NCBI GenBank assembly: GCA_016202965.1
Contig: JACQNQ010000028.1
Span: 1 to 35,376 of the forward strand
DNA from: Candidatus Zambryskiibacteriota bacterium
GTDB lineage: Bacteria; Patescibacteriota; Minisyncoccia; Phycocordibacterales; DATDWN01
Length of the DNA stretch: 35,376 nt
Direction of reading: 5' to 3'
A program made the translations under genes and the position numbers. Positions 1,207 through 32,142 of this stretch are shown piece by piece (within the stretch, counting starts at the first letter, position 1; each line of letters starts with the position of its first letter). The notes beneath the pieces are model-generated. The model saw only the letters and a program-made list of their open reading frames with translations. It was not told where the DNA came from and ran no database searches.

Positions 1207-1358
1207 TTTGAAGTTCTGTAAGAATTTTTTCAGAAATACTCGCTTTTCCTGCGAAAAGCTCATTCTGTCCTCGGCCACAATTTTGTCAAGATGAATGCCT
1301 TGACAAAAACCGTGCTTGCGACCTGCGGATGTTCTGAAAAAATTCTTACAGAACTTCA
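1207..1358 (-). repeat. family X structured repeat, copy 1 (RNA-sense orientation = minus)
   Basis: Outer stem TTTGAAGTTCTGTAAGAATTTTTTCAGAA (1207-1235) pairs with TTCTGAAAAAATTCTTACAGAACTTCA (1332-1358). The ~85-nt core is about 90% identical to the reverse complement of the 28945-29030 core. Its right arm overlaps the last codons and stop of gatA. Confidence 0.8.
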
Positions 1359-2770: not shown

Positions 2771-2783
2771 TTCATTGTAATTT

Positions 2784-2873
2784 AGTTTATAAAGTTGAAA
2801 GTTTTTAAAGTTTGTAAAGTAGAATGTATTTGATTTGACTTTATAAACTTTATAACTTTACGAACTTTTAACT
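2784..2873. repeat. family Y hairpin repeat (AAAGTT-unit arms), copy Y1
   Basis: Left arm AGTTTATAAAGTTGAAAGTTTTTAAAGTTTGTAAAGT, loop AGAATGTATTTGATTTG, right arm ACTTTATAAACTTTATAACTTTACGAACTTTTAACT. About 85% identical to copy Y2 at 6027-6119. Confidence 0.85.
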
Positions 2874-2876
2874 GTT

Positions 2877-3332: not shown

Positions 3333-5453
<2,121 letters not shown>

Positions 5454-6020: not shown

Positions 6021-6026
6021 ATATTT

Positions 6027-6119
6027 AGTTTATAAATTTATAAAGTTTTTAAAGTTTGTAAATTGGAATGTGAATTTGAATCTACTTTATGAACTTTATA
6101 ACTTTATGAACTTTCAACT
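6027..6119. repeat. family Y hairpin repeat, copy Y2
   Basis: AGTTTATAAATTTATAAAGTTTTTAAAGTTTGTAAAT / loop TGGAATGTGAATTTGAATCT / ACTTTATGAACTTTATAACTTTATGAACTTTCAACT. Confidence 0.85.
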
Positions 6120-6121
6120 GC

Positions 6122-6661
6122 TCATTGATGATTAAAAAGTAACTCGCTGATTTGGAACGACTTAGTGACGCCTCTATTTAACCAGCTGATATTAATCAGC
6201 GCTTTAACTTCACTGGCTGAAATTGATTGAAACTGTATCTCGCGCTTAAAATTTAACTGCGTCCAGCCGGAAGTGTAACCGTAAAGACCGGTGGACGGAC
6301 TCTGTCTTATGTTCGGACAAGAGCCAAACCCGCCGGAGCAAGCGGCTGTGGTTTTTAAGGGAGAGTCAATGGTGCATGTTTTGCCAAAAAAACACGGGTC
6401 TCCCGCGCTAGCTGAAAGTGAAGCCAGCCAGTTTGTCGGCGTTCCGCTTACGGAACGCAAAGCATTTTCATCCCGGATGTTTCTGATAAATTCCATTCCT
6501 TCTTGAGCAAGCCAAAAAGCGGTTACTTGGTCTTTGGCTATTGTGGAGGATTGAATGCCGCTTTGCACCGCCGTAAAAGTGGCGGCAATGGACATAGTCA
6601 AGATACTAATGGCCACAAGCGTTTCAACTAGTGTGAAACCTCTAGAGAATTTTGTTTTCAT
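6122..6661 (-). CDS. type IV minor pilin / pseudopilin (prepilin-type N-terminal cleavage/methylation domain)
   Basis: 179 aa. MKTKFSRGFTLVETLVAISILTMSIA contains the G|FTLxE motif plus a hydrophobic helix. Confidence 0.8.
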   Translation of the reverse strand: MKTKFSRGFTLVETLVAISILTMSIAATFTAVQSGIQSSTIAKDQVTAFWLAQEGMEFIRNIRDENALRSVSGTPTNWLASLSASAGDPCFFGKTCTIDSPLKTTAACSGGFGSCPNIRQSPSTGLYGYTSGWTQLNFKREIQFQSISASEVKALINISWLNRGVTKSFQISELLFNHQ

Positions 6662-6792
6662 AATTTAATTATACTACAAAATTCTTCTGGTGGTGGTAAT
6701 AGCCACATCCGCAAAATCTCTTTCAGCATATTCATAACGTAAAAACTTAATTTATTGGTAGACTCTTTTTTTATTTTCTAAATTTTTAAAAT

Positions 6793-6824
6793 TTCATATC
6801 TTACGATATATCGTAAGATATGAA
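6793..6824. repeat. family P perfect palindrome, copy P1
   Basis: TTCATATCTTACGATATATCGTAAGATATGAA is a 32-nt perfect palindrome with the conserved centre ACGATATATCGT. Confidence 0.9.
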
Positions 6825-6878
6825 TTATTCGTAGCCATTCGTAGATTCGCGCATTATTCACATATTCACAGATTTTTA

Positions 6879-7442
6879 TTACTGGAAATCAAAGAGACGT
6901 TGAGATACGGTTGTTTCGAGAGTAAATGTCGTCTGACTTGTCGGTTTTAGTCCGGCAAAACCGGAAACCACAATTATAACCTGCGGCTGAAGTAAATTCA
7001 CGCCATTGGAATACGGAGCCGAACCGAAAACTCTGAAGGCCAGGTTGGTAATGGTCACATCCGGTGAAGTGATTGGGTAATAATCCGCGCTGTTTGTTGA
7101 TTTCTCAATACGGCCGGAGTTTAGTCTATATGTTGTCGTCAGCCCATTAAACAATACGGCCATCGTGTCAGACGGGTTATTGTTGCCACAATCCTGCGGG
7201 GTCGTTATCGGTACCGCTCCGCCCGGTCCGCAGTGATAATTTTGTCCAAAACGAATGGACCTGGTCATAGATTCCATTGTTGAATTAAGGTTATCCATAA
7301 CAGCCCGGAGAGTCTGGGATTTCCTGTTAGCGTCAAGAACGGAGAGAATTGAACCCGTACTTAAGACCATAACAACGCTAAAAATAGAAACTGCAACCAT
7401 TATTTCTATAAGTGAAAAACCTTTAGAAAACTTTACTTTCAT
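6879..7442 (-). CDS. type IV minor pilin / pseudopilin
   Basis: 187 aa. MKVKFSKGFSLIEIMVAVSIFSVV carries the G|FSLIE prepilin motif. Confidence 0.8.
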   Translation of the reverse strand: MKVKFSKGFSLIEIMVAVSIFSVVMVLSTGSILSVLDANRKSQTLRAVMDNLNSTMESMTRSIRFGQNYHCGPGGAVPITTPQDCGNNNPSDTMAVLFNGLTTTYRLNSGRIEKSTNSADYYPITSPDVTITNLAFRVFGSAPYSNGVNLLQPQVIIVVSGFAGLKPTSQTTFTLETTVSQRLFDFQ

Positions 7443-7474
7443 AATTTAATTATACTTTAAACCAGCTAGAATTT

Positions 7475-7603
7475 GTAGAACTTTCATAATCTGGATGAAT
7501 TTTGAGGCGCAAGCTTTGTTTGTGACCAAGCTGTAGTAACCTACTACGCGTGGAACAAACAAAGTGAAGCAACAAAAAAATTCGCCAGATTTGGAAGTTC
7601 TAC
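7475..7603. repeat. family Z-related long imperfect hairpin, copy Z1
   Basis: GTAGAAC...GTTCTAC outer pairing. Inner stem CTTTGTTTGT/ACAAACAAAG encloses the hairpin GTAGTA-ACC-TACTAC. It shares GGATGAAnTnnGAGGCG and TGAAG..CAACAA blocks with Z2 and Z3. Confidence 0.6.
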
Positions 7604-8187
7604 TGTACGGAAATTTGACCTGTGGACTGTACGGTCACAGTCTCGGTTTTCCCTTTCGGCGAAATCAGGATAACCTTTCCAATCAGAGCGCCTCCGACTG
7701 AAGCTCCGCTACTATTTGAAAAATTAATTTTAGCATCCGGATTTGGCCGCTTAAATGTGACTTGAATACCGGAAACTTCCGGTATCGGACAGCTTGCCCC
7801 GCATATTTGAGAAATTTTTATGCCGTTACGAAAAGTCATTTTTTCAACACATTCGGTCGATGAACTGCCGCATCCGCTGTTAACGTCATATAAATTGTTG
7901 CTATTTTTATCCACAAAAATATAATAATTAGTCGGGTCAGTCGCACTAAAATAAATGCCGTAAGCCAAATCAAATTGTCCGCTGCCGACAGATACTTCTT
8001 TGACGGACAAACCGTATGTTTGGGATTTCCTTACTCCGATAGCCAGTTCTTGGCCAGCAGAAGTCAACGCCAAATTATCATTAAATGTCCCGTAATTCCA
8101 AAGTACGGTTACCATAATGAGACTGACAATGCTGACAGAAACCATAAGCTCAATTAAGGTGAAACCAAGCTTAGTTATAAAGTTCAT
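7600..8187 (-). CDS. type IV minor pilin (GspH/FimT-like, tentative)
   Basis: 195 aa. [25 protein letters not shown] carries the prepilin motif. Its start overlaps the pilD stop (ATGA). Confidence 0.8.
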
Positions 8188-9056
8188 AAAGTTATAAAGT
8201 TTATAAAGTCATTCAAACCCAAGATATCAATGTGAGTGAAGAAAATTATAACGGTGGCAAGAACAAGAAAAGGAGCGAACGGCACTTCTGAATGAAGATT
8301 TACTTTTTGACTGACTGTTTTAGTCAATCGGCTGTGAATAAACAGGTAAATGCTCCATATGGCGCCGAGCCAGAAAGCCAGTATAACCGCGGATATGCCA
8401 AGAATAAAACCTAAAAGAGCGCCTATGCCAAAAACTAATTTTAAATCGCCAAAGCCAATCCATCTGCCTTTGGACAAAAGCCAGAGCAAAAGAAGAGGCA
8501 TAAATAAGATAAGCGGAGAGAGCAAATCAAAAATCCCTACCCGAGTGATTATAAAATTCTTGGAATAGAAAAATAATAAAAGTTTTATGACGGCCAATAT
8601 AATAAAGATGTACACAAAGATATTGGGAATGACTTTGTGCCGAATGTCGTAGATGACAATAACCAAGAGCAGACTGAAAACAAAAGCGTAATAAATAAAA
8701 AATAAGACTGAATAGAGCAGGCCGTACTGAAAACCGCTGTAGAGAGGCCACAAGTAGAATTGTCTCAAGGCGATACCCACAAAAATAAGGCCGGTCAAGA
8801 GTTCAACCAAAGGGTACTGCCATGATATTTTGGACTTGCAACGAGAACATTTGCCGGAAAGAAAAAGAAACGAAATAATCGGCACGAGTTCACGCCACGA
8901 AAGCTTGGCATTGCAAGTCAGGCAACGCGAACGGCCGAACAAAGGAGATGCGCCGGTGTTATAACGCAGTGAAATGACGTTTATAAAACTGCCAACGATT
9001 GTTCCTAAAATAAATATAAAGACTAAAGATATGACATCCATTTGTTTATTATACAA
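8184..9056 (-). CDS. pilD: prepilin peptidase (A24 family)
   Basis: 290 aa polytopic membrane protein. N-terminal Cys pairs (CLTCNAKL...CSRCKSKI) and the aspartyl-protease motif GFGDLKL. Confidence 0.9.
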
Positions 9057-9077
9057 CTAATAAAAGCTACTCACAAC

Positions 9078-9105
9078 AAAAAAATCGACTGGTGTCGATT
9101 TTTTT
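9078..9105. terminator. bidirectional hairpin terminator after the major pilin gene
   Basis: AAAAAAATCGAC-TGGT-GTCGATTTTTTT lies 25 nt past the pilA-like stop on the minus strand. Confidence 0.7.
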
Positions 9106-9129
9106 AAACAATTTTAGTCAAAGAGTATT

Positions 9130-9537
9130 TTATGGACAAACAGTGGTTGTAACCGGACCTGTTGGCTTAGCCGACCCCGTGCTATCTACGCACCAATATC
9201 CGCTGGATTTCAGTGGAGCGCTTGCCGCCCAAGCTCCGCTAGCGTCAAAACAAGCGTCTGACGTTGTGTTGCCCGCGCCCGCCATACTTGCCGCATCAAG
9301 TCCTTTTGCAACATTCGGGTCTTCTGGGCAAACACCGGCATAGCTGCCATTGGTGCCGTCATAGACAAGTTCAGCTTGAGCTCGGATATTATTGAGATTA
9401 GCTTTGACCGCCGCATCTGCTCCTTTATTCCTTGCGTTATTGAGAGAAGCCAGCACAACCGAAGAAAGAATGCCGATGATAGCGATAACCACTAAAAGCT
9501 CTATTAGAGTGAAACCGCCAATGAATTTTTTTCTCAT
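9130..9537 (-). CDS. major type IV pilin (PilA-like)
   Basis: 135 aa. MRKKFIGGFTLIELLVVIAIIGILSSVVLASL is the canonical class III signal peptide plus alpha1 helix. The C-terminal domain has four Cys. The gene has its own terminator. Confidence 0.85.
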   Translation of the reverse strand: MRKKFIGGFTLIELLVVIAIIGILSSVVLASLNNARNKGADAAVKANLNNIRAQAELVYDGTNGSYAGVCPEDPNVAKGLDAASMAGAGNTTSDACFDASGAWAASAPLKSSGYWCVDSTGSAKPTGPVTTTVCP

Positions 9538-9628
9538 ATTATATAAATTTATTAATATTATGTAAGGTCCCTGTATTGTATAACGAAAGTCTAAGTGTGG
9601 AAAGTCATTCTGTGGATAAATGCACGCC

Positions 9629-9709: not shown

Positions 9710-9722
9710 ACGGTCAATAAAT

Positions 9723-9774
9723 AAAAAAACCACCCTGCGGATGCACACTTGCGTGTGCATCCGCCCGAGGGTGG
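9723..9774 (-). terminator. strong intrinsic terminator of the GC-rich transcript
   Basis: The minus strand reads CCACCCTCGGGCGGATGCACAC-GCAA-GTGTGCATCCGC-AGGGTGG followed by TTTTTTT. Confidence 0.85.
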
Positions 9775-9969
9775 ATTGCGACTCGTTCGCTTTGCCTATC
9801 GGCTCGACCGGCACCTAAGTGCGGTCGGGGCGATTCGTGGCAAGCCGGCGGATGGCCGACGCGGGAATTTGTATCCATAAAGCCCGCAGTAGCCTGTCGC
9901 CGTGATGAGCGAAGAGTCGGTTTACGAGCCGCGGAATTGCGGCTCGTTCTCGCCGGCGCGCGCCGATGC

Positions 9970-10089
9970 CTAGTTGGCTCGAGTGGCGCTGCCGATGTCG
10001 TCGAACGCGGTCGTCGCGGTTGTCGCAAATAATGTGATATCGTGGGTCAAGGAACTGGTCGGCGGACTCTTGCTGTTGAGATACTTCAT
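9970..10089 (-). CDS. SD-led 39-codon small ORF inside the GC-rich transcript (hypothetical)
   Basis: AGGAGGTG (10093-10100, minus strand) lies 3 nt before the ATG. Translation is MKYLNSKSPPTSSLTHDITLFATTATTAFDDIGSATRAN, with a TAG stop. It is below the ORF-track length cutoff. Confidence 0.4.
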   Translation of the reverse strand: MKYLNSKSPPTSSLTHDITLFATTATTAFDDIGSATRAN

Positions 10090-13795: not shown

Positions 13796-14413
13796 TTAAT
13801 CAAACCCTGTCATTGCGCGTTCGAGGCCAGAGGTTACAAATGTTTCAATAGCAAGATTTACTTTTTTGGAAAGTTTTTTCAAGACTGAAATTTCATCCGG
13901 TTTGAATTCACCTAAAATATGTTTCATTACTTTTTCCTCACCTTGCGGTTTGCGAATCTTGCCAGTTGGAGAGGTCGGCGAGATACCGACGCGGATGCGG
14001 GCAAATTTTTCCGTCTTAACTGCTTTGATGATTGACTCCAAACCTTTGTGTCCCCCGGAAGATTTGTTGAAAGAAATTCTGGCAGAACCGAAAGGTAAAT
14101 CCAAATCATCGTAAATAACAATCGTTTTCTCTGTTTTACCCGCCATAGCTTTAGCGGAGGCGGGCGCCTTACTGCTAGTTACTAACTGCTTAATACTATT
14201 CCCCGACTTATTCATAAATGTGTCCGGCAATATCAAAGTTACAGGAGATTTGCCCACTTTCACCTTTGAAACTTGCGCGTTCAATTTTTTATCCGCCTTC
14301 CACTCCGCTCCGATCGATTTTCCAAACCACTCCAAAAGCATCCTTCCGGTGTTATGACGAGTACCTTCATATTCTTCTCCGGGATTTCCCAAACCAACTA
14401 TTATGTATAACAT
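13796..14413 (-). CDS. pth: peptidyl-tRNA hydrolase
   Basis: 205 aa. LYIIVGLGNPGEEYEGTRHNTG, FMNKSG, DDLDLPFG and GGHKGL motifs. It carries a ~10-aa GC-rich insertion (KAPASAKAMAG). Confidence 0.95.
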   Translation of the reverse strand: MLYIIVGLGNPGEEYEGTRHNTGRMLLEWFGKSIGAEWKADKKLNAQVSKVKVGKSPVTLILPDTFMNKSGNSIKQLVTSSKAPASAKAMAGKTEKTIVIYDDLDLPFGSARISFNKSSGGHKGLESIIKAVKTEKFARIRVGISPTSPTGKIRKPQGEEKVMKHILGEFKPDEISVLKKLSKKVNLAIETFVTSGLERAMTGFD

Positions 14414-14432: not shown

Positions 14433-14604
14433 TAGATTTTCGTCTCAACAAATCCTTTTCAGAGCATGCGCAAGCCTTGAGCTGGTTTTGTCAACGACCC
14501 TCTGTAAGAAGGGCTCATTGACAAATCAAGGCTGAGCACCTGAACAAACTTTTCGCTGGAAAAGTTTGAGTCTCTGAAAAGAATTTGGGGAGAAAGAAAA
14601 TCTA
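14433..14604 (+). repeat. family X structured repeat, copy 3 (divergent member)
   Basis: Outer stem TAGATTTTC..CCTTTTCAGAG / CTCTGAAAAG..GAAAATCTA. Stem B is AGCCTTGA/TCAAGGCT. Stem C TTGTCAA/TTGACAA carries an extra inner hairpin. The hairpin CTTTTCGCTGGAAAAG is conserved. Confidence 0.75.
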
Positions 14605-14636
14605 TGATAAAAAATCGTCATCGCACACTTTTTCCT

Positions 14637-14697
14637 AAGCCGACGCTTTAACAGGTCGGCTCCCCGACTTTCTGATATTAGGTCAGAAACGTCGGGG
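14637..14697. repeat. GC-rich nested-hairpin element (family G), intergenic copy
   Basis: GCCGAC-GCTTTAACAG-GTCGGC, then CCCCGAC-(TTTCTGA..TCAGAAA)-CGTCGGGG. Its reverse complement shares CCCCGACGT, TCGGGGAGCCGACC and AAAGCGTCGGCTT, in that order, with the insert inside tsaD. Confidence 0.85.
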
Positions 14698-14732
14698 TTG
14701 TGTCAAACGAAGTCGCACTATATACTTACGCC

Positions 14733-15335
14733 ATGAACGAAGAAAAAATACCTCCATCACCTCAAAAAAAACTGGCCTTCGTTGAAATAGTAAAAGAGAT
14801 TGTCATATTTGCCATGATTGCTTTCGGTATCGTCCTTCCTTTCCGTCTATACATTGCCGAGCCGTATATTGTGGACGGAGCATCAATGGACCCGACATTT
14901 CATACAGGAGACTATCTCATCGTGGACAAACTTTCATACGAAATAGGAAAACCTCAGAGAAACACCGTGGTTATTTTTAGATATCCGAACGACCCCAGAA
15001 AAAGTTTTATCAAACGCATCGTCGGACTGCCGGGCGAGACAATAACCATGAAAGACAATGTTGTCATTGTAATCAATCCGGAAAATCCAAAAGGCCTGAA
15101 TTTAGACCAGTCATATGTTGTTCACAAATGTTTGAAAACGACAAACAACTGTGTCATTTCATTTGAAGAAACTCTTGGAGTTGACGAGTACTATGTTTTG
15201 GGAGACAACAGAGCGGAAAGTTTTGACTCCCGTTCATGGGGACCGTTAAATAAAAAATACTTGCTGGGCAAACCGATACTCCAGTTGTGGCCGTTAAAAC
15301 AAATCAGTCTGTTTCCCGGAAAAGACAGAAAGTAG
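14733..15335 (+). CDS. lepB: signal peptidase I (S26)
   Basis: GASMDPTF (catalytic Ser), FIKRIVGLPGE (catalytic Lys box) and GDNRAESFDSRSWG. The ORF track opens at a GTG at 14700; the ATG at 14733 is the preferred start. Confidence 0.9.
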   Translation: MNEEKIPPSPQKKLAFVEIVKEIVIFAMIAFGIVLPFRLYIAEPYIVDGASMDPTFHTGDYLIVDKLSYEIGKPQRNTVVIFRYPNDPRKSFIKRIVGLPGETITMKDNVVIVINPENPKGLNLDQSYVVHKCLKTTNNCVISFEETLGVDEYYVLGDNRAESFDSRSWGPLNKKYLLGKPILQLWPLKQISLFPGKDRK

Positions 15336-15336
15336 T

Positions 15337-15398
15337 AAAAAGTTCATAAAGTTAAAATAAATTTGCTTTACTTTACAAACTTTATAATTTTATAAACT
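15337..15398. repeat. family Y hairpin repeat, short copy Y3
   Basis: AAAAAGTTCATAAAGTTAAAA / TAAATTTGCTTT / ACTTTACAAACTTTATAATTTTATAAACT. Confidence 0.7.
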
Positions 15399-15404
15399 AA
15401 ATCT

Positions 15405-16538
15405 ATGAAACAACAAAAAATCAAAGGGGAAGGTTCTTATCTGGCTACCGAGTGTGATAAAGTTGGCGAGATTGCTTTGCATTACGGTTTTACCATAATC
15501 AAGCCGCCACAGATTAGCCCTTCGGATATTTCCAAAGCCAAGCAATTCAAGGATTTTGACTACTACAACGACGTCGAAGAAAAAGTGGCTTTAACCAGTT
15601 GGTATATTGATCGCGACCTTCACAACCAAAGTCAGCTGATAGCTATTCATTATAAAAAACCGCGCGAAAATTTATACAGTTTTGAGATTATGGGCAGTGA
15701 CAAAAGCATCAGCGAAGGACTGCTTTTAAAATGCGCTTTGGCGGTACTCTATGAACTTGGCTGGACAAATCTATATATAGACATAAACAGTATCGGGGAT
15801 AAAGAGTCGGTCGGAAAATTTGAACGAGAACTCGGAGCTTACTTTCGCAAACACACCCATACATTGTCGGCAAAATTAAATCAAAAATTCAGAAAAAATC
15901 ACTATTCTATACTGACTGATAACTCGCCTGAGAGCCAATCTTTCAGACAAGACGCTCCACAAACGGTTGGCTCACTGTCCGATATTGCCAGAGTCCATTT
16001 CAAAGAAGTTCTGGAGTTTCTGGAAACATTCAGTGTCGCTTATAAAATCAAACCGAATGTCTTATCCAATAAACTTTACGCTTCATATACCGTTTTTGAA
16101 ATACGAAACGATGACCAGTTATTGGCTTACGGTTACAGATACAACCACTTGGCCAGAAAAATTGGAGCAAAAAGAGATATACCGTCTGTCGGTCTGACGG
16201 TCCTGGTCAAAAAACAACCGAAGTTTTCCAAAAAAGTCATCATCAAAAATATAAAGAAACCGAAATTTTATCTGGTTCAACTCGGAGAAACGGCCAAACT
16301 GAAAGTTTTAAATGTCATAGAGATGCTTCGCAGGGAAAAAATTCCCGTCTATCACTCCATAACAAAAGATAAAATGGTGGGACAGCTTTCCGGCGCTGAA
16401 TATATGAAAGCTACACACGTTTTGGTCATGGGACAAAAAGAAGCTGTGGAAAACACAATGATAGTCCGCAGCATTGCAAGCCGTGAGCAAGAAACCGTGC
16501 CTTTGGACAAACTTGTTAAATTTTTAAAAAAGTTATAG
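15405..16538 (+). CDS. HisRS-like class II aminoacyl-tRNA synthetase homologue with degenerate catalytic motifs
   Basis: 377 aa. HisRS-type layout: EGLLLKCALAVLYELGWTNLYIDINSIGD and a C-terminal HGTP anticodon-binding-like domain (FYLVQLGE...THVLVMGQKE...VRSI). HYKKPRENLYSFEIMG replaces motif 2 (RYERPQ.GR.RQF.Q). AYGYRYNHL replaces GGRYD.L. The motif 3 Gly/Arg pattern is absent. Confidence 0.6.
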   Translation: MKQQKIKGEGSYLATECDKVGEIALHYGFTIIKPPQISPSDISKAKQFKDFDYYNDVEEKVALTSWYIDRDLHNQSQLIAIHYKKPRENLYSFEIMGSDKSISEGLLLKCALAVLYELGWTNLYIDINSIGDKESVGKFERELGAYFRKHTHTLSAKLNQKFRKNHYSILTDNSPESQSFRQDAPQTVGSLSDIARVHFKEVLEFLETFSVAYKIKPNVLSNKLYASYTVFEIRNDDQLLAYGYRYNHLARKIGAKRDIPSVGLTVLVKKQPKFSKKVIIKNIKKPKFYLVQLGETAKLKVLNVIEMLRREKIPVYHSITKDKMVGQLSGAEYMKATHVLVMGQKEAVENTMIVRSIASREQETVPLDKLVKFLKKL

Positions 16539-16974: not shown

Positions 16975-17095
16975 AATTTCTAATTGACCTAATTATACTA
17001 ATTTCTAAATAAATCCCAATGTCTAAATCCTAAATTGGGTATTGGAACTTAGGTATTGTTTAGGTTAATTAGAATAATTAGAAATTAGGTTAATT
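16975..17095. repeat. family W hairpin repeat, copy W1
   Basis: AATTTCTAATTGACCTAATTATACTAATTTCTAAATAAATCCCAATG... folds back on ...TAGGTTAATTAGAATAATTAGAAATTAGGTTAATT. Its left arm is identical to the reverse complement of 20244-20280. Confidence 0.85.
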
Positions 17096-17098
17096 TTA

Positions 17099-17458: not shown

Positions 17459-17511
17459 AAGTTGAATTTGCATTTACTTTTAACTTTCGACTTTTAACTT
17501 TTAACTTTTCT
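17456..17511. repeat. family Y repeat, asymmetric copy Y4
   Basis: GAAAGTT GAATTTGCATTT ACTTTTAACTTTCGACTTTTAACTTTTAACTTTT. This creates the spurious N-terminal extension of the ftsA ORF in the ORF track. Confidence 0.7.
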
Positions 17512-18690
17512 ATGCTTCGCAACATTACAGTTGGAATAGATATCGGCACATACCAAGTCAAAGTGGTAATCTCTGAACTTGTCAAAATTGACGGAAAACC
17601 CACTACCCGCGTTCTGGGCACAGGACTGGTGGAATCAAAAGGCCTTCGACACGGCTATATTATAAACAACAAAGACGTCACGGAAAGTATCAGAGGAGCA
17701 GTGACACTTGCCGAAAAAACAGCCGGAGTAAAAGCGCATAGAGCCTTTGTGGCTGTCGGAGGAATAGGTCTCTCCGGAATAGTTTCCACCGGCAATACCA
17801 TAATAAGCCGGGCCGATTTGGAAATAACCGACCTTGATATGGAAAAGGTCTGTCAAATATGCGAGGATGATTTGCCTACCGCCGTAATCCAGAACCGCCG
17901 AATTTTGCACAGTATTCCAATTTCTTACAAGATAGATGGCAAACCGGTTATAGCTAAAACTCCACTCGGAATGAAAGCCGCCAAACTTGAAGTTAAAATG
18001 CTTTTTGTGACCTGTCTTGAACCGCACTTAAACGACTTGCTCCAAGCGGTGGAGGAAGCCGGCATTGAAGTTATAGATTGTCTGGCTTCTCCCATTGCCG
18101 CTTCTTTTGTCACTTTATCCAAACAGCAAAAAATGGTCGGGTGCCTTTTGGCCAATATCGGCGCGGAAACCATTTCCATTGTTGTCTTTGAAAATAACAT
18201 ACCTATTTCTCTGGAAGTTTTTCCAATAGGTTCAACGGACATTACCAACGATATCGCTTTAGGGCTAAAAATTCCTCTGGAAGAAGCGGAGAATCTAAAA
18301 ATCGGCGGACTGGGCATAGGCTCGTTCTCAAAGAAAAAACTGGACGAGATTATTTCGGCCAGATTGTCCGATATGTTTGAGCTGATAGAAAATCATTTGA
18401 AAAAAATCGGCAGGAGCGGGCTTTTGCCGGCAGGAATTTTTATAAGCGGTGGCGGAAGCGGTATCGCTACTGTTGAAGATTTCGCCAAAGTGGCTTTGAG
18501 ATTGCCTTCACGTTTAGCTACTCTTTCATTATCAGATAAAAAAAATATAAAAGATTCAACCTGGGCCGTTGCTTACGGATTGTGCATGCTTGGAAACTCA
18601 AAAGAAGAAAAGGTCAATCTCGGGCTGCGGCCGACCATTAACAGTTACGGTATGAAAATTTTCGGCTGGTTTAAACAGTTTCTGCCATAA
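17512..18690 (+). CDS. ftsA: cell division protein FtsA
   Basis: Actin-fold ATPase. It starts MLRNITVGIDIGTYQVKVV and contains GIFISGGGSGIA. It lies upstream of ftsZ. The start is chosen at the ATG after the repeat. Confidence 0.9.
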   Translation: MLRNITVGIDIGTYQVKVVISELVKIDGKPTTRVLGTGLVESKGLRHGYIINNKDVTESIRGAVTLAEKTAGVKAHRAFVAVGGIGLSGIVSTGNTIISRADLEITDLDMEKVCQICEDDLPTAVIQNRRILHSIPISYKIDGKPVIAKTPLGMKAAKLEVKMLFVTCLEPHLNDLLQAVEEAGIEVIDCLASPIAASFVTLSKQQKMVGCLLANIGAETISIVVFENNIPISLEVFPIGSTDITNDIALGLKIPLEEAENLKIGGLGIGSFSKKKLDEIISARLSDMFELIENHLKKIGRSGLLPAGIFISGGGSGIATVEDFAKVALRLPSRLATLSLSDKKNIKDSTWAVAYGLCMLGNSKEEKVNLGLRPTINSYGMKIFGWFKQFLP

Positions 18691-19021: not shown

Positions 19022-20167
19022 ATGCCTCAGATAAAACCAGACGTAGAAGCTTTTGCCAGAATCAAAGTTCTCGGTATCGGCGGGTCAGGTGGAAATTCCT
19101 TGAACCATATGGTCAACTCAAAAGTCAGAGGAGTTGACTTTGTGGCGGTCAATACGGATTCTCAAGACCTTCATCATTCTCTGGCAAAACGCAAAATCCA
19201 TATCGGCAAGAATTTGACTCATGGACTGGGAGCCGGCATGAATCCGGAACTCGGTAAGCGCGCGGTAGAAGAAACGAAGGAGGAAATCCAGGAAGTCTTG
19301 AAAGGAGCCGATATGGTTTTTATTGCCGGCGGACTTGGCGGAGGCACTTGCACCGGAGCCGCTCCGACAGTTGCTCGTGTGGCAAAAGAAATGGGAGCTT
19401 TGACTGTAGCCATAGTAACCAAACCTTTTTTCTTTGAAGGCCAGCAAAGAATGAAAATTGCCGAAGTCGGACTTGAGGAACTTCGCCAGGCGGTGGACGC
19501 TATTATTGTCATTCCAAACGACCGGCTCTTGGCCTCAGTCAGCAAAGAAACTACGGCAAAAAACGCTTTTGCCATGTGCGACGATGTTTTGAAGTCCGCC
19601 GTGGAAGGCATCTCCGACCTTATCACCACTCCCGGTATAATAAACATTGACTTTGCCGATATCAGAGCGGTTATGGAAAACGCCGGACCGGCCTTGATGG
19701 GTATTGGCACAGCTACCGGAGAAAAACGGGCGGAAGAAGCGGCAAAATCGGCCATCAATTCCCCTCTTTTGGAAGTTTCCATAAATGGAGCGAAAGGTGT
19801 GTTATTTTCAATCGCCGGTGGAGACGACCTAGGCATGTTTGAAATCCAGGACGCGGCAAAGATTATCACCGAATCGGTTGACCAAAACGCCAAAATTATT
19901 TTCGGTACCGTTCGAGACGAAAAATTGAAAAAAGGCGAGGTCAAAATCACCGTTATCGCCTCAAACTTCCCGGAAAACTTTACCAAGAAAACACTCTTCC
20001 AGTCGCAACCGACGAAAGAAAAAGAAGTGGAAGACCTGTCTGCGCAGGCAGGAAAAGGCAAAATTTATAATTCCGTTCCAGCACCAAAAAATAACGACAA
20101 AAATGAAGTGGACGAGGACGATTGGGGCGCAGTACCGGCATTTTTGAGAAGAAGCAAACTTAAGTAA
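19022..20167 (+). CDS. ftsZ: cell division GTPase FtsZ
   Basis: 381 aa. Tubulin signature GLGGGTCTGAAP, NTDSQDL, and a C-terminal conserved peptide (DDWGAVPAFLRR). Confidence 0.97.
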   Translation: MPQIKPDVEAFARIKVLGIGGSGGNSLNHMVNSKVRGVDFVAVNTDSQDLHHSLAKRKIHIGKNLTHGLGAGMNPELGKRAVEETKEEIQEVLKGADMVFIAGGLGGGTCTGAAPTVARVAKEMGALTVAIVTKPFFFEGQQRMKIAEVGLEELRQAVDAIIVIPNDRLLASVSKETTAKNAFAMCDDVLKSAVEGISDLITTPGIINIDFADIRAVMENAGPALMGIGTATGEKRAEEAAKSAINSPLLEVSINGAKGVLFSIAGGDDLGMFEIQDAAKIITESVDQNAKIIFGTVRDEKLKKGEVKITVIASNFPENFTKKTLFQSQPTKEKEVEDLSAQAGKGKIYNSVPAPKNNDKNEVDEDDWGAVPAFLRRSKLK

Positions 20168-20282
20168 ATTAATCTGATTTCTAATTATTCTAATTGACCT
20201 AAATAAATCCCGATGATCAATTTGGACATTGGGATTTGGTTATTATTTAGAAATTAGTATAATTAGGTCAATTAGAAATTTT
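20168..20282. repeat. family W hairpin repeat, copy W2 (inverted relative to W1)
   Basis: TTTCTAATTATTCTAATTGACCTAAATAAATCCCGATG... pairs with ...TATTTAGAAATTAGTATAATTAGGTCAATTAGAAATT. It accounts for the spurious N-terminal extension of the next ORF. Confidence 0.85.
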
Positions 20283-20285
20283 ATT

Positions 20286-21224
20286 ATGAATCTGTATGAT
20301 TTAATAATTATCGGTGGCGGGCCGGCTGGAGTTTCTGCCGGTGTGTACGCCGCAAGAAAAAGACTGAAAACTTTGCTCATCGCGCCTGAATTCGGCGGAC
20401 AAAGTATTGTGTCGGAAGGAATAGAAAACTGGATCGGCACAGTCAAAATCACCGGGGCTGAACTTGCTGAAAATTTCAAAAAACATCTGCAAGCATACGC
20501 CAATGATTCAGTTACTATAAAAGAGGGTGAATATGTTACAGATATGTCAAGGACTCCCCTTGACACTGAAAATGCATTTAAAGTTTTGACAGACAAAGGC
20601 GAGTATAAAAGCAAAACTGTTCTTATCGCCACAGGCGCTTCAAGGAGAAAACTGGAAATTCCGGGGGCGAAAGAGTTCGATAACAAGGGCCTGACATACT
20701 GCGCTTCCTGTGATGGCCCACTTTTTGCCGGACAGGATGTGGTAGTTATTGGCGGAGGCAACGCCGCTTTTGAAACATCTGCTCAACTTCTCGCCTACTG
20801 CAAATCAGTAACACTTTTAAATCGCAGTCAAAATTTTCGGGCAGACGAAATCACAATAGCCAAATTAAAAACAAATCCAAAATTCAAAATTATCACAAAT
20901 GCGCTGCCAAAAGAAATTAAGGGCGAGCAATTTGTTAAAAGTATTATCTGGGAAGATGCAGTGACGAAAGAAAATCATGAAATCCAAACCCCTGGTATTT
21001 TCGTAGAAATTGGACTCATACCAACAACAAGTTTTGCCAAAAATATATTGGAGCTAAACAAAATAGGTCAAATCCCGACTGACCCGCGCACTCAGCAAAC
21101 AAAAGTTCCCGGTATCTGGGCCGCCGGCGACGCCACAGACGGACTCTACCACCAAAACAATATCGCCTCCGGCGACGCAGTGAAAGCTTTGGAAGATATT
21201 TACCTGCATCTTCATGTAAAATAA
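20286..21224 (+). CDS. trxB: thioredoxin reductase-like FAD/NAD(P) pyridine nucleotide-disulfide oxidoreductase
   Basis: MNLYDLIIIGGGPAGVSAGVYAARK (FAD GxGxxG), redox-active CASCDG, VVVIGGGNAAFE (NAD(P)H site) and GIWAAGDA. Confidence 0.85.
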   Translation: MNLYDLIIIGGGPAGVSAGVYAARKRLKTLLIAPEFGGQSIVSEGIENWIGTVKITGAELAENFKKHLQAYANDSVTIKEGEYVTDMSRTPLDTENAFKVLTDKGEYKSKTVLIATGASRRKLEIPGAKEFDNKGLTYCASCDGPLFAGQDVVVIGGGNAAFETSAQLLAYCKSVTLLNRSQNFRADEITIAKLKTNPKFKIITNALPKEIKGEQFVKSIIWEDAVTKENHEIQTPGIFVEIGLIPTTSFAKNILELNKIGQIPTDPRTQQTKVPGIWAAGDATDGLYHQNNIASGDAVKALEDIYLHLHVK

Positions 21225-21970: not shown

Positions 21971-22522
21971 ATGTTATTTATCTATTTTTTAATACTATTG
22001 GTTTGTTTAATTATTTCTATTTTTTTCGTTCTTTTCTTTTTAGCGGAAATTGTCGCTATTTTTACTACAGATGCGCCTTTTGTGCCGATACCGGAGGAGA
22101 CTTTGGAAAAAATTATTGAAAATTTGAAACTGGATAATAACAGTATTTTGTATGACCTTGGTTGTGGTGATGCTCGGGTACTCCAAAAAATGGTAGAAAA
22201 ATATCCAAATATAAAATCAGTGGGGATTGAAATTGCTTTCGTCCCATACATTTTGGCTCGCTTAAAAACACGCAAAAACAAAAATATACAAATAAAACGA
22301 CAAAATATTTTCAGCGCGGACGTTTCAGACGCGACACATATATTTGTCTATTTATATCCAGAAGTAATGGAAAAATTAATGCCGATGTTGGAGAAAAAAT
22401 GTTGGAAAGGCACGCTGGTTATTTCTTGCGATTTTGAAGATAAAAATCGCAAACCGACAGAAATAATCCATCTGGATACTCTTGCAAAAAGAGGAAAAAG
22501 ACTTATTGTGTATAGGTTATGA
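21971..22522 (+). CDS. class I SAM-dependent methyltransferase with an N-terminal TM helix
   Basis: 183 aa. Motif I is ILYDLGCGDARVL. The stop overlaps the tsaD start (ATGA). Confidence 0.7.
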   Translation: MLFIYFLILLVCLIISIFFVLFFLAEIVAIFTTDAPFVPIPEETLEKIIENLKLDNNSILYDLGCGDARVLQKMVEKYPNIKSVGIEIAFVPYILARLKTRKNKNIQIKRQNIFSADVSDATHIFVYLYPEVMEKLMPMLEKKCWKGTLVISCDFEDKNRKPTEIIHLDTLAKRGKRLIVYRL

Positions 22523-23889
22523 TTATTCTGTCAATCGAAACGTCTTGTGACGAGACGGCAGTCAGTGTTGTGGAAGCGATAGGTGGATTGGAAAATCCTG
22601 TTTTTTCTGTTCTTGGAAATGCTCTCTTTTCACAAATAGATATCCATGAAGAATTTGGGGGCGTAGTGCCAATGGTGGCCAAACGCGAACATGCAAAAAG
22701 ACTTCCACTACTTTTGAAAAAAGTTTTGGCAGACGCTCACATATACGTCATGGCTGATATGTGGTATTCAGAAAAAATGTGGGCAGAGTTAAAAAAAATT
22801 TTGGAAAGAGAAGAAGGGCTATACGATGAATTAAAAAGTATTTTGGAAAATATGAAGAAGCCGAATATAGACGTTATTTCCGTTACGGCAGGACCAGGAC
22901 TTGCGCCGGCATTGTGGGTAGGTGTCAGTTTTGCCGAAGCTTTGGGAAAGTTGTGGAATATTCCGGTAGTTCCGGCAAATCATATGGAAGGGCATATCGC
23001 TTCCATCTTGCTAGACGGAAGCGGAGTTAAAAGTGAAAAAGCCCCGACGTTACAGCCCCGACGTGCAGACGGAGAGCCGACAAGGTCGTCGGCTTCGGGG
23101 AGCCGACCGAAAGCGTCGGCTTTAAAAGTTAAAAGTAATAATACAATTCAATTTCCGGCATTGGCCTTGCTCATTTCCGGCGGACATACGGAACTGGTGA
23201 AAATAAAAAACTGGGGAGAATATAAAATTTTGGGCGAGACGCGGGATGATGCCGTAGGTGAGGCCTTTGACAAAGTGGCTAGAATGCTTGGACTTTCCTA
23301 CCCCGGCGGACCTCAAATTTCTGCATTAGCAGAAATTTCGCGAAAAAGAGCAAAAAAACTTCTGCGTAGTTCTGCGTCTGGTCCGCGTGAGTCTGCGAGG
23401 AAATTTGTAATCAAATTTCCTAGGCCGATGATTCACTCCGGAGATTATGATTTCTCATTTGCGGGACTGAAAACTTCAGTTTTATATTATTTGCGGGATA
23501 ACCACGGAACAAACAAAGAAGATGTTGCCCTAAATCCGTCAGTAGACGGATCGGGCGATCACAGACAAAACTTTATCTGTGATGTAGCCAGAGAGTTTGA
23601 AGATGCGGTAGTGGAAGTTTTAGTGGAGAAAACCGCTAAAGCTATGAAAGATTCTGGAGCAAAAACGCTTATCATCGCCGGCGGTGTCATAGCCAATAAA
23701 AAACTGCGAGAGGAGTTTATAAAATTTGAGAAAAAATATAATGACTTGATAGTTAGAATACCGTCAATGACAATGGCGGGAGACAACGCTTTAATGATTG
23801 CATACGCTACATATATCAATGTTACATTACATCCTGAACTTATGAGAAACCCTAAAAAAATAATTGCCAACGGCAATTTAAAATTGTAA
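22519..23889 (+). CDS. tsaD: tRNA N6-adenosine threonylcarbamoyltransferase (Kae1/TsaD family) with four insertions
   Basis: ILSIETSCDETAVSVV, HMEGHI, LLISGGHTEL, GETRDDAVGEAFDKVARMLGLSYPGGP, FSFAGLKTSV and IAGGVIANKKLR. At 456 aa it exceeds the ~340 aa typical of bacterial TsaD. Confidence 0.9.
   Translation: MIILSIETSCDETAVSVVEAIGGLENPVFSVLGNALFSQIDIHEEFGGVVPMVAKREHAKRLPLLLKKVLADAHIYVMADMWYSEKMWAELKKILEREEGLYDELKSILENMKKPNIDVISVTAGPGLAPALWVGVSFAEALGKLWNIPVVPANHMEGHIASILLDGSGVKSEKAPTLQPRRADGEPTRSSASGSRPKASALKVKSNNTIQFPALALLISGGHTELVKIKNWGEYKILGETRDDAVGEAFDKVARMLGLSYPGGPQISALAEISRKRAKKLLRSSASGPRESARKFVIKFPRPMIHSGDYDFSFAGLKTSVLYYLRDNHGTNKEDVALNPSVDGSGDHRQNFICDVAREFEDAVVEVLVEKTAKAMKDSGAKTLIIAGGVIANKKLREEFIKFEKKYNDLIVRIPSMTMAGDNALMIAYATYINVTLHPELMRNPKKIIANGNLKL
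23025..23136. repeat. composite repeat (family Y arms plus family G GC-rich core) lying in frame inside tsaD
   Basis: AGTTAAAAGTGAAAAAG ... CCCCGACGT..GCCGAC-AAGGTC-GTCGGC..TCGGGGAGCCGACC-GAAAGC-GTCGGC ... TTTAAAAGTTAAAAGT. It shares three ordered blocks with 14637-14697 (reverse complement). Confidence 0.85.
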
Positions 23890-28828: not shown

Positions 28829-28900
28829 TGCTCTCGGACTGAATCGAACAGTCAATTCCTTCTTAGGACGAAGGAGTTATATCCATTTAACTACGAGAGC
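28829..28900 (-). tRNA. tRNA-Arg (CCT)
   Basis: GCTCTCG TA GTTA AATGGATA TAAC T CCTTC GTCCTAA GAAGG AATT GACTG TTCGATT CAGTC CGAGAGC A. Confidence 0.9.
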
Positions 28901-29080
28901 AATAATTTTCAAAACTACGGCGTGGGCATAACTTTTCCGGAGCATCCACAGGTCGCAAGCATGGTTTTTGTCAAGGCATTCATCTTGACAAAATTGCGAC
29001 CGAGGACAGAATAAATTTTTCGCTGGAAAAGTTTATGTCTCCGGAAAAGTTATGACGAGCCAAGAGTTTTGAAAATTATT
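28901..29080 (+). repeat. family X structured repeat, copy 2
   Basis: Outer stems AATAATTTTCAAAACT/AGTTTTGAAAATTATT and CATAACTTTTCCGGAG/CTCCGGAAAAGTTATG. Stem B is GGTCGCAA/TTGCGACC. Stem C is TTTTTGTCAAGG..CTTGACAAAA. The hairpin is TTTTCGCTGGAAAAG. Confidence 0.85.
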
Positions 29081-29312
29081 TTATATCAAGCAATTGTCCT
29101 AATTTCGATTTGTCAAAGCCGACGATAGTCTGACCGTCAATAATGATAACCGGCACGCCGAGCTGGCCGGATTTCTCCATCATCTCTTTCCTTTTCTCCA
29201 TATTGGAGGCCACGTCAAATTCTTCGTACTGAATGTTGTTTTGCTTGAAATATTCTTTTGCCATATGGCAGAAATGACATGTCGGAGTGGTATATATTGT
29301 TACTTTTTTCAT
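29076..29312 (-). CDS. glutaredoxin-like / NrdH-like small redox protein
   Basis: 78 aa. KVTIYTTPTCHFCHMAKEYF (CxxC) and GVPVIIIDGQTIVGFD. Confidence 0.8.
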   Translation of the reverse strand: MKKVTIYTTPTCHFCHMAKEYFKQNNIQYEEFDVASNMEKRKEMMEKSGQLGVPVIIIDGQTIVGFDKSKLGQLLDIK

Positions 29313-29713: not shown

Positions 29714-29720
29714 AATGGCA

Positions 29721-29798
29721 GTTAAAAGTTAAAGGTAAAAAGTTAAAAGCGAATGTATTTTGTGTTTTCTTTTAACCTTTAACTTTCTACTTTTAACT
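29721..29798. repeat. family Y hairpin repeat, copy Y5
   Basis: AGTTAAAAGTTAAAGGTAAAAAGTTAAAAG / CGAATGTATTTTGTGTTTT / CTTTTAACCTTTAACTTTCTACTTTTAACT. Confidence 0.85.
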
Positions 29799-32050: not shown

Positions 32051-32111
32051 CTCCCACCAAAATTTTTAAATTTTAAAAACTTTGGTGGGAGCCGAACAAA
32101 TTGCGTTCGGC
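32051..32111. terminator. tandem hairpins separating the first and second island ORFs
   Basis: CTCCCACCAAA...TTTGGTGGGAG (11 bp) followed by GCCGAAC-AAATTGC-GTTCGGC (7 bp). Confidence 0.55.
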
Positions 32112-32142
32112 TTTGAAAGAACTATCGGGTTGATCAATCTAA

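What the first reader, a model, noticed from the sequence alone, without database searches (positions are those of the whole stretch)
23025..23136. Intergenic-type repeat element sitting in frame inside the essential gene tsaD
Canonical TsaD goes almost directly from the metal-binding HMEGH motif to the strand preceding SGGHT. Here about 38 extra residues intervene (VKSEKAPTLQPRRADGEPTRSSASGSRPKASALKVKSNN). The DNA encoding them has the architecture of this genome's intergenic repeats. AAAGTT-type arms (AGTTAAAAGTGAAAAAG ... TTTAAAAGTTAAAAGT) flank an ~80-nt GC-rich core of nested hairpins (GCCGAC/GTCGGC twice, CCCCGA/TCGGGG). The core shares three blocks in the same order (CCCCGACGT; TCGGGGAGCCGACC; AAAGCGTCGGCTT) with the reverse complement of the non-coding element at 14637-14697. 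A repeat family that otherwise lives between genes has therefore been absorbed, stop-free and in frame, into a core tRNA-modification enzyme. This parallels Rickettsia palindromic elements. I am not aware of it being described for this type of genome.
Basis: partly seen in the sequence, partly recalled or inferred. Interest (0 to 1): 0.8.

Follow-up and report, generated by a model that had tools for sequence, protein, structure and literature searches.

The report
Tiny hairpin repeat translated inside tsaD
The extra loop in this bacterium's TsaD enzyme is encoded by two nested copies of a roughly 40-base GC-rich double-hairpin repeat that is scattered through ultra-small (Patescibacteria/CPR) bacterial genomes, mostly beside tRNA genes but repeatedly in frame inside essential genes, much like the palindromic elements of Rickettsia.

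Summary
tsaD (22519-23889, +) carries about 40 residues that solved TsaD structures lack. An 80-nt GC-rich hairpin core (23042-23121) encodes 27 of them, and it matches the non-coding element at 14638-14697 (-).

The anatomy needs correcting. The AT-rich "arms" are older host sequence: a distant orthologue has them uninterrupted (…GAAAAG^TTAAAAG…). The core is best read as two nested copies of a ~40-nt element, CCCCGAC-loop-GTCGGGG-A-GCCGAC-loop-GTCGGC-T.

Of 110 copies, 62 are tRNA-associated. They usually sit at the D-loop motif CAG^TTGG, flanked by duplicated tRNA fragments. About 26 are otherwise intergenic. At least 12 lie in frame and stop-free inside conserved genes (SecA twice, IleRS, LysRS, GatB, ribosomal protein L3 twice, thioredoxin reductase).

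No copy needs excision to restore a reading frame, and several would lose the frame if excised. AlphaFold predicts the TsaD insert as a disordered loop.

Most likely this is a small mobile or recombinogenic repeat, tolerated and translated. The mobilising mechanism is unknown. It is analogous to Rickettsia palindromic elements but not a member of that family. I found no published description.

The parts
22519..23889 (+). tsaD ORF (456 aa), the host gene
   Evidence: PDB phmmer E 6e-63. PF00814 is listed for the protein. Catalytic motifs are invariant columns. AlphaFold mean pLDDT is 80, and about 90 outside the inserts.
23025..23041 (+). Left AT-rich arm (AGTTAAAAGTGAAAAAG). It is older, AT-rich repeat-type host sequence, not part of the GC element.
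   Evidence: Orthologue P0016 has GGAGTTAAAAGTGAAAAG^TTAAAAGTGAAAAGT uninterrupted. P0042 also encodes SEKLKVKS here. The word is enriched in intergenic arrays of the window.
23042..23055 (+). Outer element copy, 5' part: the 5' arm of hairpin 1 (CCCCGAC) plus loop GTTACAG
   Evidence: Joined to 23095-23121 it gives a 41-nt element identical to the copy in L080.
23056..23094 (+). Inner element copy (39 nt): CCCCGAC-GTGCA-GACGGAG-AGCCGAC-AAGGTC-GTCGGCT. The 3' arm of its hairpin 1 is degenerate. It sits after CAG in loop 1 of the outer copy.
   Evidence: Read directly from the sequence. The part count is two 5' arms, two AGCCGAC..GTCGGCT hairpins, and one intact plus one degenerate hairpin-1 3' arm. 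The insertion point CAG^T fits the family's flank preference.
23095..23121 (+). Outer element copy, 3' part: TCGGGG-A-GCCGACC-GAAA-GCGTCGGC-T (hairpin-1 3' arm plus hairpin 2)
   Evidence: Covariance-model hit 23056-23121, 44 bits. Exact pattern match.
23122..23136 (+). Right AT-rich arm (TTAAAAGTTAAAAGT), older host sequence
14638..14697 (-). Intergenic copy of the same element with a long hairpin-1 extension. It lies between pth (13796-14413, -) and the signal peptidase gene (14700-15335, +).
   Evidence: Covariance-model hit of 49 bits, E 3e-10. Fold z -5.2. A copy with near-identical flanks (tgtttgacacaa / tagga) occurs in L021. Flanking genes identified by Pfam.
32053..32112 (+). Possible diverged relative: CCCACCAA..TTGGTGGG-A-GCCGAAC..GTTCGGC-T-TTGAA. 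Same architecture and junction, different stem sequences, intergenic.
   Evidence: Weak covariance-model hit of 14.5 bits, E 0.05. Sequence read.

Best explanation
The GC-rich core inside tsaD is a secondary insertion of a small repeat element. The consensus is CCCCGAC-loop1-GTCGGGG-A-GCCGAC-C-(3-4 nt loop)-GC-GTCGGC-T, 38-66 nt long. It is widespread in Patescibacteria (CPR) genomes.

In this gene, one copy landed at AAAAG^TTAAAAG. That site lies inside an older AT-rich, low-complexity stretch encoding a loop between the metal-binding HMEGH helix and the strand leading to SGGHT. A second copy then landed after CAG in loop 1 of the first.

Together with one extra A, the 80 nt add 81 nt, or 27 codons. 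The segment is GC-rich and so free of stop codons. It is transcribed and translated as a disordered surface loop (APTLQPRRADGEPTRSSASGSRPKASA) that the enzyme tolerates.

Shown here:
- family membership;
- secondary origin;
- frame preservation;
- recurrence in other essential genes;
- absence of target-site duplication;
- a flank preference of purine^TTG.

Inferred: that the element is, or was, mobile, and that the insert is selectively near-neutral.

Guessed (about 1 chance in 4): that it moves as a single-stranded DNA hairpin through a HUH/Y1-type enzyme, as proposed for REP/RAYT and IS200/IS605-derived elements. An alternative is spread by template switching or recombination at hairpin-stalled forks using short homology to the tRNA D-loop.
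For: - **Family:** the pattern TCGGGGAGCCGAC-N2-14-GCGTCGGCT hit 114 stretches in a capped scan of species-representative genomes. Of these, 108 come from 86 assemblies, nearly all labelled Patescibacteria lineages. The alignment of 76 copies is clean, and stem pair 9-20 covaries (CG 36, UA 22, AU 12).
- **Independent model:** the model built from those copies finds both window copies and about 17 more diverged copies in 775 kb.
- **Secondary origin:** P0016 shows an empty site. The loop is 8-10 aa in 80 of 120 TsaDs, and the GC-coded peptide occurs only in this protein.
- **Translation rather than removal:** all 12 copies flanked by at least 80 open codons on both sides read through in frame. 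The L3 copies (L031, L101), L002 and the 80-nt tsaD core would be out of frame if excised precisely.
- **Recurrence in genes:** SecA, IleRS, LysRS, GatB, L3 and thioredoxin reductase carry copies. In GatB and LysRS the segment aligns to gaps in solved homologues.
- **Independent events:** SecA carries copies at different sites and in different orientations in two genomes.
- **Tolerated loop:** residues 167-206 have pLDDT about 33 and form coil between helix 155-164 and strand 214-219.
- **No stops:** copies are open in 5.2 of 6 frames.
- **No target duplication:** see the tsaD site, three tRNA-Val genes restored by precise excision, and 25 tRNA fragments that continue exactly across the element.
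Against: - Only one 35-kb contig of this genome is available, so its genome-wide copy number is unknown.
- The empty site comes from an orthologue only about 57-63% identical, not from a sister strain. I found no presence/absence polymorphism between close relatives, so mobility is inferred, not shown.
- 80 nt is not a multiple of 3, and the frame depends on one extra A in the left arm.
- The nested-copy reading competes with one copy plus internal duplication. The covariance model itself parses 23056-23121 as a single copy with a 33-nt loop.
- The scan required 22 exact bases, which exaggerates apparent conservation and misses diverged relatives.
- Taxon labels of several MAGs ('Gammaproteobacteria', 'Bacteriovoracaceae', 'bacterium') were not verified.
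- No transposase candidate was looked for or found.
- There are no transcript or peptide data.
Confidence: 0.8

Rival explanations
1. The core is one element copy that expanded internally, by slippage or duplication of its 5' arm and of hairpin 2. It is not two nested insertions.
For: The covariance model parses 23056-23121 as one copy with a 33-nt loop-1 insertion. CCCCGACGTTACAG and CCCCGACGTGCAGAC look like a tandem duplication. Many family members carry a second CTCCGAC..GTCGGAG module inside hairpin 1.
Against: Removing 23056-23094 leaves a 41-nt element identical to the L080 copy. The removed 39 nt has all four modules in the canonical order. The junction CAG^T matches the family's insertion preference.
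Confidence: 0.25
2. The insert is not translated. It is removed from the RNA like an intron, or skipped by the ribosome as the GC-rich 'byp' hairpins of a yeast mitochondrion are (from my own knowledge, not checked here).
For: The hairpins are strong (-40.9 kcal/mol over 121 nt). The element also interrupts three otherwise complete tRNA-Val genes, and precise removal would restore them.
Against: Precise removal of the 80 nt breaks the tsaD frame, while retention keeps it. None of 110 copies splits a gene into two frames. The L3 copies would frameshift if excised. The three interrupted tRNAs each sit next to an intact copy. No Rfam ribozyme or intron family matches.
Confidence: 0.05
3. The insert was retained because it gives TsaD a new function, for example a flexible basic/acidic loop that contacts tRNA or a partner subunit. 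It is not a neutral passenger.
For: It lies immediately after the metal-binding helix. This loop has been repeatedly lengthened in Parcubacteria TsaDs.
Against: The peptide is unique to one genome and predicted disordered. The same DNA is translated in different frames and orientations in unrelated proteins, so there is no conserved peptide function.
Confidence: 0.1
4. It is an assembly or binning artefact: repeat-induced chimerism in a metagenome-assembled contig.
For: The contig is a MAG contig, and the element is a dispersed repeat.
Against: The insert is bounded on both sides by contiguous tsaD sequence in the same frame. Its flanks match the orthologue's empty site to the base. Comparable in-frame copies occur in independent assemblies from many studies.
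Confidence: 0.03

Closest known systems
Rickettsia palindromic elements (RPEs; Ogata et al. 2000 and 2002, as summarised in PMC10969869)
   Same: Both are dispersed palindromic repeats of a reduced-genome, host-dependent bacterial group. Both are found between genes and in frame inside unrelated, often essential, protein genes, at positions compatible with the protein fold.
   Different: RPEs are about 100-150 bp, fall into about ten Rickettsia-specific families, and each encodes a conserved peptide. This element is about 40 nt and spans many class-level Patescibacteria lineages. It is read in several frames and both orientations, is mainly tRNA-linked, and inserts into itself.
REP / REPIN elements mobilised by RAYT transposases (PMC3116915, PMC3337134)
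   Same: Both are short GC-rich imperfect palindromes present in many copies. Their stems are conserved and their loops vary. Neither shows an obvious target duplication, and both plausibly rely on a single-strand hairpin substrate.
   Different: REPs are extragenic and lineage-specific, and they carry a conserved GTAG next to the hairpin. Here at least 12 copies are intragenic. The two hairpins are in tandem, the flank preference is purine^TTG, and no RAYT has been linked.
Yeast mitochondrial GC clusters such as GC42, and fungal double-hairpin elements (PMC4478555 and references in it)
   Same: These are about 42-nt GC-rich hairpin elements proliferating in an AT-rich compact genome. Their stems are under constraint and their loops are free, and an AG sits at the insertion site.
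   Different: They are organellar. GC42 duplicates its AG target and is mostly intergenic. Here there is no duplication, and there is strong tRNA D-loop targeting.
[quoted passage not shown]
   Same: Both are small non-autonomous repeats that occasionally fuse in frame with host ORFs.
   Different: MITEs have terminal inverted repeats derived from an IS and make target-site duplications. Neither an IS parent nor a duplication is seen here.

Membership tests
Patescibacteria double-hairpin repeat family defined here | Two tandem hairpins joined as GTCGGGG-A-GCCGAC, with the 5' arm CCCCGAC and the 3' end GCGTCGGCT | tested here: met
   Covariance model R1, built from 76 copies in other genomes, scores 23056-23121 at 44 bits and 14638-14697 at 49 bits.
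Patescibacteria double-hairpin repeat family defined here | Insertion at purine^TT(G/A) without target-site duplication | tested here: met
   Filled site AAAAAG[80 nt]TTAAAAG against empty site AAAAG^TTAAAAG in P0016. Flank logos.
Rickettsia palindromic elements | In-frame, stop-free insertion in protein-coding genes at structurally permissive sites | tested here: met
Rickettsia palindromic elements | Element length of about 100-150 bp encoding a family-specific conserved peptide | tested here: not met
   Copies are 38-66 nt. The peptide differs with frame and orientation (VGEPTEASAL, SGSRPKASAL, LVGSPTQRRG). RPE properties are taken from PMC10969869.
Rickettsia palindromic elements | Sequence homology to RPE-1 to RPE-10, and occurrence in Rickettsiales | not tested
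   No RPE sequences were on hand. All hosts found here are Patescibacteria-type MAGs.
REP / REPIN-RAYT | Short GC-rich imperfect palindrome repeated many times | tested here: met
REP / REPIN-RAYT | Confined to extragenic space | tested here: not met
   At least 12 copies lie inside conserved ORFs.
REP / REPIN-RAYT | A cognate single-copy RAYT (Y1 HUH) gene in the same genome | not tested
   Only 8-kb blocks and one 35-kb contig were available. No transposase domain appeared among the 20 window ORFs scanned.
MITE | Target-site duplication flanking the element | tested here: not met
   There is no duplication at tsaD. Precise excision restores three tRNA genes. 25 tRNA fragments run on exactly across the element.
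MITE | Terminal inverted repeats | tested here: inconclusive
   The 5' CCGACGC and 3' GCGTCGG are complementary over 7 nt. However, the same bases form the two internal hairpins.
TsaD/Kae1/Qri7 (the host gene) | ASKHA fold with the HxxxH metal site, SGGHT and the C-terminal D | tested here: met

The most novel reading that the evidence does not exclude
The element may be more than a passive REP-like passenger. It could be a phylum-wide, self-targeting mobile unit that homes to the tRNA D-loop motif (CAG^TTGG) and spreads by a mechanism that duplicates part of its target. That would leave a '[tRNA nt 1-15][element][nt 16-24]' decoy upstream of an intact tRNA. This would be either a previously unknown transposition or template-switch pathway, or a domesticated structure such as a decoy or processing signal for tRNA genes. 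The in-frame copies in tsaD, secA, ileS, lysS, gatB and rplC would then be spill-over at look-alike sites, and a general source of the lineage-specific protein insertions seen in these bacteria.
Probability: 0.15. Interest if true: 0.9.

Novelty: new variant of a known kind. Interest (0 to 1): 0.7.

Why it matters
Patescibacteria make up a large share of bacterial diversity. Their genomes are tiny and usually described as poor in repeats and mobile DNA.

[quoted passage not shown] It sits in the D-loop region of tRNA genes and is translated inside SecA, aminoacyl-tRNA synthetases, a ribosomal protein, GatB and TsaD.

It offers three things:
- a concrete mechanism for some of the unexplained lineage-specific insertions in CPR proteins;
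- a marker for strain typing and for detecting mis-annotation;
- a tractable question about how such an element moves without a visible transposase.

For tsaD itself, the likely consequence is modest: a tolerated, disordered surface loop.

Tried and rejected
- **Rfam:** the gathering-threshold scan of the window found only four tRNAs. The permissive scan of 22980-23180 gave only noise. The element is not a curated RNA family.
- **tRNA-intron idea:** excising the element and re-running ARAGORN restored a complete tRNA in only 3 of 110 cases. It is not a general tRNA intron.
- **Terminator or promoter idea:** the 3' flank is TTG(A/G), not a T run. The distance to downstream tRNAs ranges from 7 to 65 nt, so no fixed promoter geometry exists.
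- **Split-gene test for excision or bypass:** no case found.
- **Virus link:** no match in the viral contig collection.
- **Exact look-up of the window's TsaD in the contig index:** not on record.
- **DNA for P0015:** not retrievable. P0061 was used instead. Its loop (EEFSIFNLQFS) is encoded by AT-rich AATTTTCAA-type repeats.
- **A search of the protein database with the element-coded peptide:** I did not pursue it.
- **Second extra segment of TsaD (23347-23406):** a k-mer search found no repeat family.
- **Literature:** searches combining CPR/Patescibacteria/Parcubacteria with palindromic elements, REP/RAYT/REPIN, MITE, IS200 or hairpin repeats returned nothing describing this element. The library lacks most subscription journals, so absence is not proof.

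Full report
**Observation**

The window is a complete 35,376-bp MAG contig. Its TsaD is NCBI protein MBI4155907.1, and the nearest relatives (63% identity or less) are Zambryskibacteria-type Parcubacteria.

ORF 22519-23889 (+) is TsaD. It matches solved TsaD chains at E 6e-63, but the alignment breaks between query residues 168 and 207. HMEGH, SGGHT and the C-terminal DN are invariant columns shared with 119 relatives.

- AT-rich arms at 23025-23041 and 23122-23136;
- an 80-nt core at 23042-23121, up to 72% GC in a 40% GC contig.

GCCGAC..GTCGGC hairpins occur three times in the window against none expected. The three blocks shared with the reverse complement of 14637-14697 are real.

**The arms are older than the core**

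In an alignment of TsaDs, the loop after HMEGH is a length hot spot. It is 8-10 residues in 80 of 120 relatives and 19-34 residues in about 27. In those it encodes peptides such as EEFSIFNFQF or SEKLKVKS.

Orthologue P0016 encodes GVKSEKLKVKSN here. Its DNA reads GGAGTTAAAAGTGAAAAG^TTAAAAGTGAAAAGT. The window reads GGAGTTAAAAGTGAAAAAG[80 nt]TTAAAAGTTAAAAGT.

The arms are therefore pre-existing host sequence of the AT-rich repeat type. That type also fills this contig's intergenic arrays and encodes LKVKSEKLK in an IleRS of another genome. The GC core is a later insertion at G^TTA. The 80 nt plus one extra A add 27 codons.

**The core belongs to a widespread family**

I scanned one genome per species for TCGGGGAGCCGAC-N2-14-GCGTCGGCT. 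Six are GC-rich non-CPR genomes that lack the 5' arm and are probably chance matches. The other 108 come from 86 assemblies. Nearly all are labelled Patescibacteria lineages: Nomura-, Zambryski-, Taylor-, Kaiser-, Yanofsky-, Uhr-, Nealson-, Vogel-, Colwell- and Adlerbacteria, 'Saccharibacteria' and Minisyncoccia. A few carry unverified other labels.

The consensus is CCCCGAC-G-loop1-GTCGGGG-A-GCCGAC-C-(GAA/GAAA)-GC-GTCGGC-T. Copies are 38-66 nt, mostly 40-45.

The invariant stems are partly an artefact of the search pattern. However, the stem-1 extension covaries (pair 9-20: CG 36, UA 22, AU 12), so a hairpin is maintained.

A covariance model built from 76 foreign copies recovers both window copies: 49 and 44 bits. 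It also finds a weak diverged relative at 32053-32112 and about 17 further diverged copies in 775 kb of the fetched loci. No Rfam family matches, and there were no viral hits.

**Anatomy in tsaD**

The core contains:
- two CCCCGACG 5' arms;
- two AGCCGAC..GTCGGCT hairpins;
- one intact hairpin-1 3' arm (TCGGGG) and one degenerate one (GACGGAG).

They are arranged as a(5')-b(5')-b(3')-b(hairpin 2)-a(3')-a(hairpin 2). Removing 23056-23094 leaves a 41-nt element identical to the copy in Kaiserbacteria locus L080. The junction CAG^T fits the family's flank preference.

I therefore read it as copy b (39 nt) nested in loop 1 of copy a (41 nt). A single copy with internal duplication remains possible, and the covariance model parses it that way.

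**Where the family sits**

Of 110 copies with a clear 5' arm:
- 62 are tRNA-associated;
- about 26 are otherwise intergenic;
- about 22 lie in heuristically called ORFs, of which 12 are solid.

The flank logo is ..YAG|element|TTG(G/A). It persists in the 48 copies with no tRNA context. In tRNA genes it corresponds to the D-loop, TAGCTCAG^TTGGTAGAG.

No target-site duplication is seen:
- the tsaD site shows none;
- three tRNA-Val genes are restored by precise excision;
- in 25 cases an exact copy of tRNA nt 1-15, then the element, then nt 16-24, lies 7-65 nt upstream of the intact tRNA.

This decoy architecture, and related partial duplications downstream of tRNAs, are not explained by simple transposition.

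**Translated, not removed**

Twelve copies are flanked on both sides by at least 80 open codons. All read through in frame and stop-free, and none splits a gene across frames. Hosts include SecA (two genomes, different sites and orientations), IleRS, LysRS, GatB, ribosomal protein L3 (two genomes), a thioredoxin reductase and a glycosyltransferase. In GatB and LysRS the element-coded residues align to gaps in solved homologues.

Precise excision would break the frame in the L3 copies and in tsaD (80 nt), which argues against RNA-level removal.

Copies are open in 5.2 of 6 frames. Composition-matched shuffles give 4.6, and random 40% GC sequence gives 2.4. Freedom from stops is therefore mostly a by-product of GC richness.

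Only about 10-20% of copies are in genes, although these genomes are mostly coding. That implies selection against most intragenic insertions, a target bias, or both.

AlphaFold (22-sequence alignment, mean pLDDT 80) puts residues 167-206 at pLDDT about 33, as coil between helix 155-164 and strand 214-219. This is a disordered surface loop.

**Mechanism**

- *Shown:* secondary insertion of a dispersed double-hairpin repeat, frame-preserving read-through, recurrence in unrelated essential genes, no target duplication, and a purine^TTG flank preference.
- *Inferred:* the element is or was mobile, because insertions are independent, lineage-specific and self-nested, and the tsaD insert is a near-neutral passenger.
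- *Speculative:* mobilisation as a single-stranded hairpin by a HUH/Y1-type enzyme, as for REP/RAYT or IS200/IS605 derivatives, or spread by template switching at hairpin-stalled forks using D-loop microhomology.

No transposase was found among the 20 window ORFs scanned, and none was searched for elsewhere.

**Comparison with known systems**

- *Rickettsia palindromic elements:* functionally the closest parallel, with in-frame palindromic repeats in essential genes of a reduced-genome lineage (PMC10969869). This element fails RPE membership on length and on having a family-specific peptide.
- *REP/REPINs:* it resembles them in size and hairpin logic, but it is not extragenic.
- *Yeast mitochondrial GC42 clusters:* it resembles them in size, GC/AT contrast and the AG at the insertion site (PMC4478555), but it lacks their target duplication.

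No paper in the searchable library describes such an element in CPR bacteria. The library omits most subscription journals.

**Verdict**

The finding generalises well beyond this gene: a Patescibacteria-wide, tRNA-linked, self-nesting 40-nt double-hairpin repeat that is recurrently translated inside core proteins. It is a new variant of a known kind, of moderately high interest.

Noticed in passing
L011, L013, L015, L064, L078, L080, L082 and 18 other loci: Upstream of intact tRNA genes (Phe, Val, Lys, Thr, Ile, Gly, Ala, Asn, Pro) lies a 'decoy': an exact copy of tRNA nt 1-15, then the double-hairpin element, then nt 16-24, then a 0-56 nt AT-rich spacer. It is tandemly repeated in L082. Related partial duplications occur downstream of tRNAs (L027, L037, L115). 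The mechanism is unexplained.
   Followed up: partly
window 9715-10045 (probably - strand): A 313-nt island of up to 74% GC in a 40% GC contig. It is very strongly structured (z about -7 on both strands). On the - strand it ends in a long hairpin followed by a U run. There is no Rfam match even at E<=1, and the 104-aa ORF listed there is probably spurious. It is a candidate unclassified structured RNA.
   Followed up: partly
window 1440-1471 (GatA, - strand) and 20024-20055 (FtsZ C-terminal linker, + strand): A second GC-rich palindrome, CCTGCCTGCGCAGGCAGG, sits in frame in two unrelated genes. It encodes LPAQAGKKL and LSAQAGKGK. This may be another small intragenic repeat family.
   Followed up: partly
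window 28890-29095 (+), 1190-1375 (-), 14480-14640 (+): A three-copy family of about 130 nt. It has a TTGACA...CAGAAT promoter-like pair followed by a TTTTCGCTGGAAAAG hairpin. Each copy lies upstream of a gene in the same orientation. The third copy lies directly beside the intergenic double-hairpin element at 14638-14697.
   Followed up: partly
window 23347-23406 (TsaD residues 277-296): A second lineage-specific extra segment, LLRSSASGPRESARK, contains a CTTCTGCGT/AGTTCTGCGT tandem. The segment is 25 residues (275-301) where 114 of 120 relatives have 10. P0036 has SASGQHLQSASGPH at the same site. The peptide RSSASG also occurs in the GC-core insert but with entirely different codons. No repeat family was found.
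   Followed up: partly
TsaD loop in P0012, P0015, P0036, P0061 and others; L116:1501-2757; L055; L030: AT-rich intergenic-type repeats are themselves translated. EEFSIFNFQF-type peptides are encoded by AATTTTCAA repeats in many Parcubacteria TsaDs. SIFNFQ lies next to the GC element in a glycosyltransferase (L055). LKVKSEKLK occurs in an IleRS (L030).
   Followed up: partly
window 2779-2875, 6005-6123, 8176-8217, 15331-15426, 17467-17513, 29720-29798: Intergenic arrays of AAAGTT/ATAAAGTT-type short repeats, often as inverted pairs. There is also a perfect ACTTAGT tandem at 5387-5442 and AT-rich inverted repeats at 16975-17096 / 20166-20286 upstream of ybeY and the thioredoxin reductase gene.
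   Followed up: no
window 5463-9537: A cluster of four or five small proteins with the N-terminal methylation (type IV pilin) motif, plus a prepilin peptidase. Their 5' ends share an 81-nt repeat (6600-6680, 7381-7461, 9476-9556), which is simply the conserved pilin leader.
   Followed up: no
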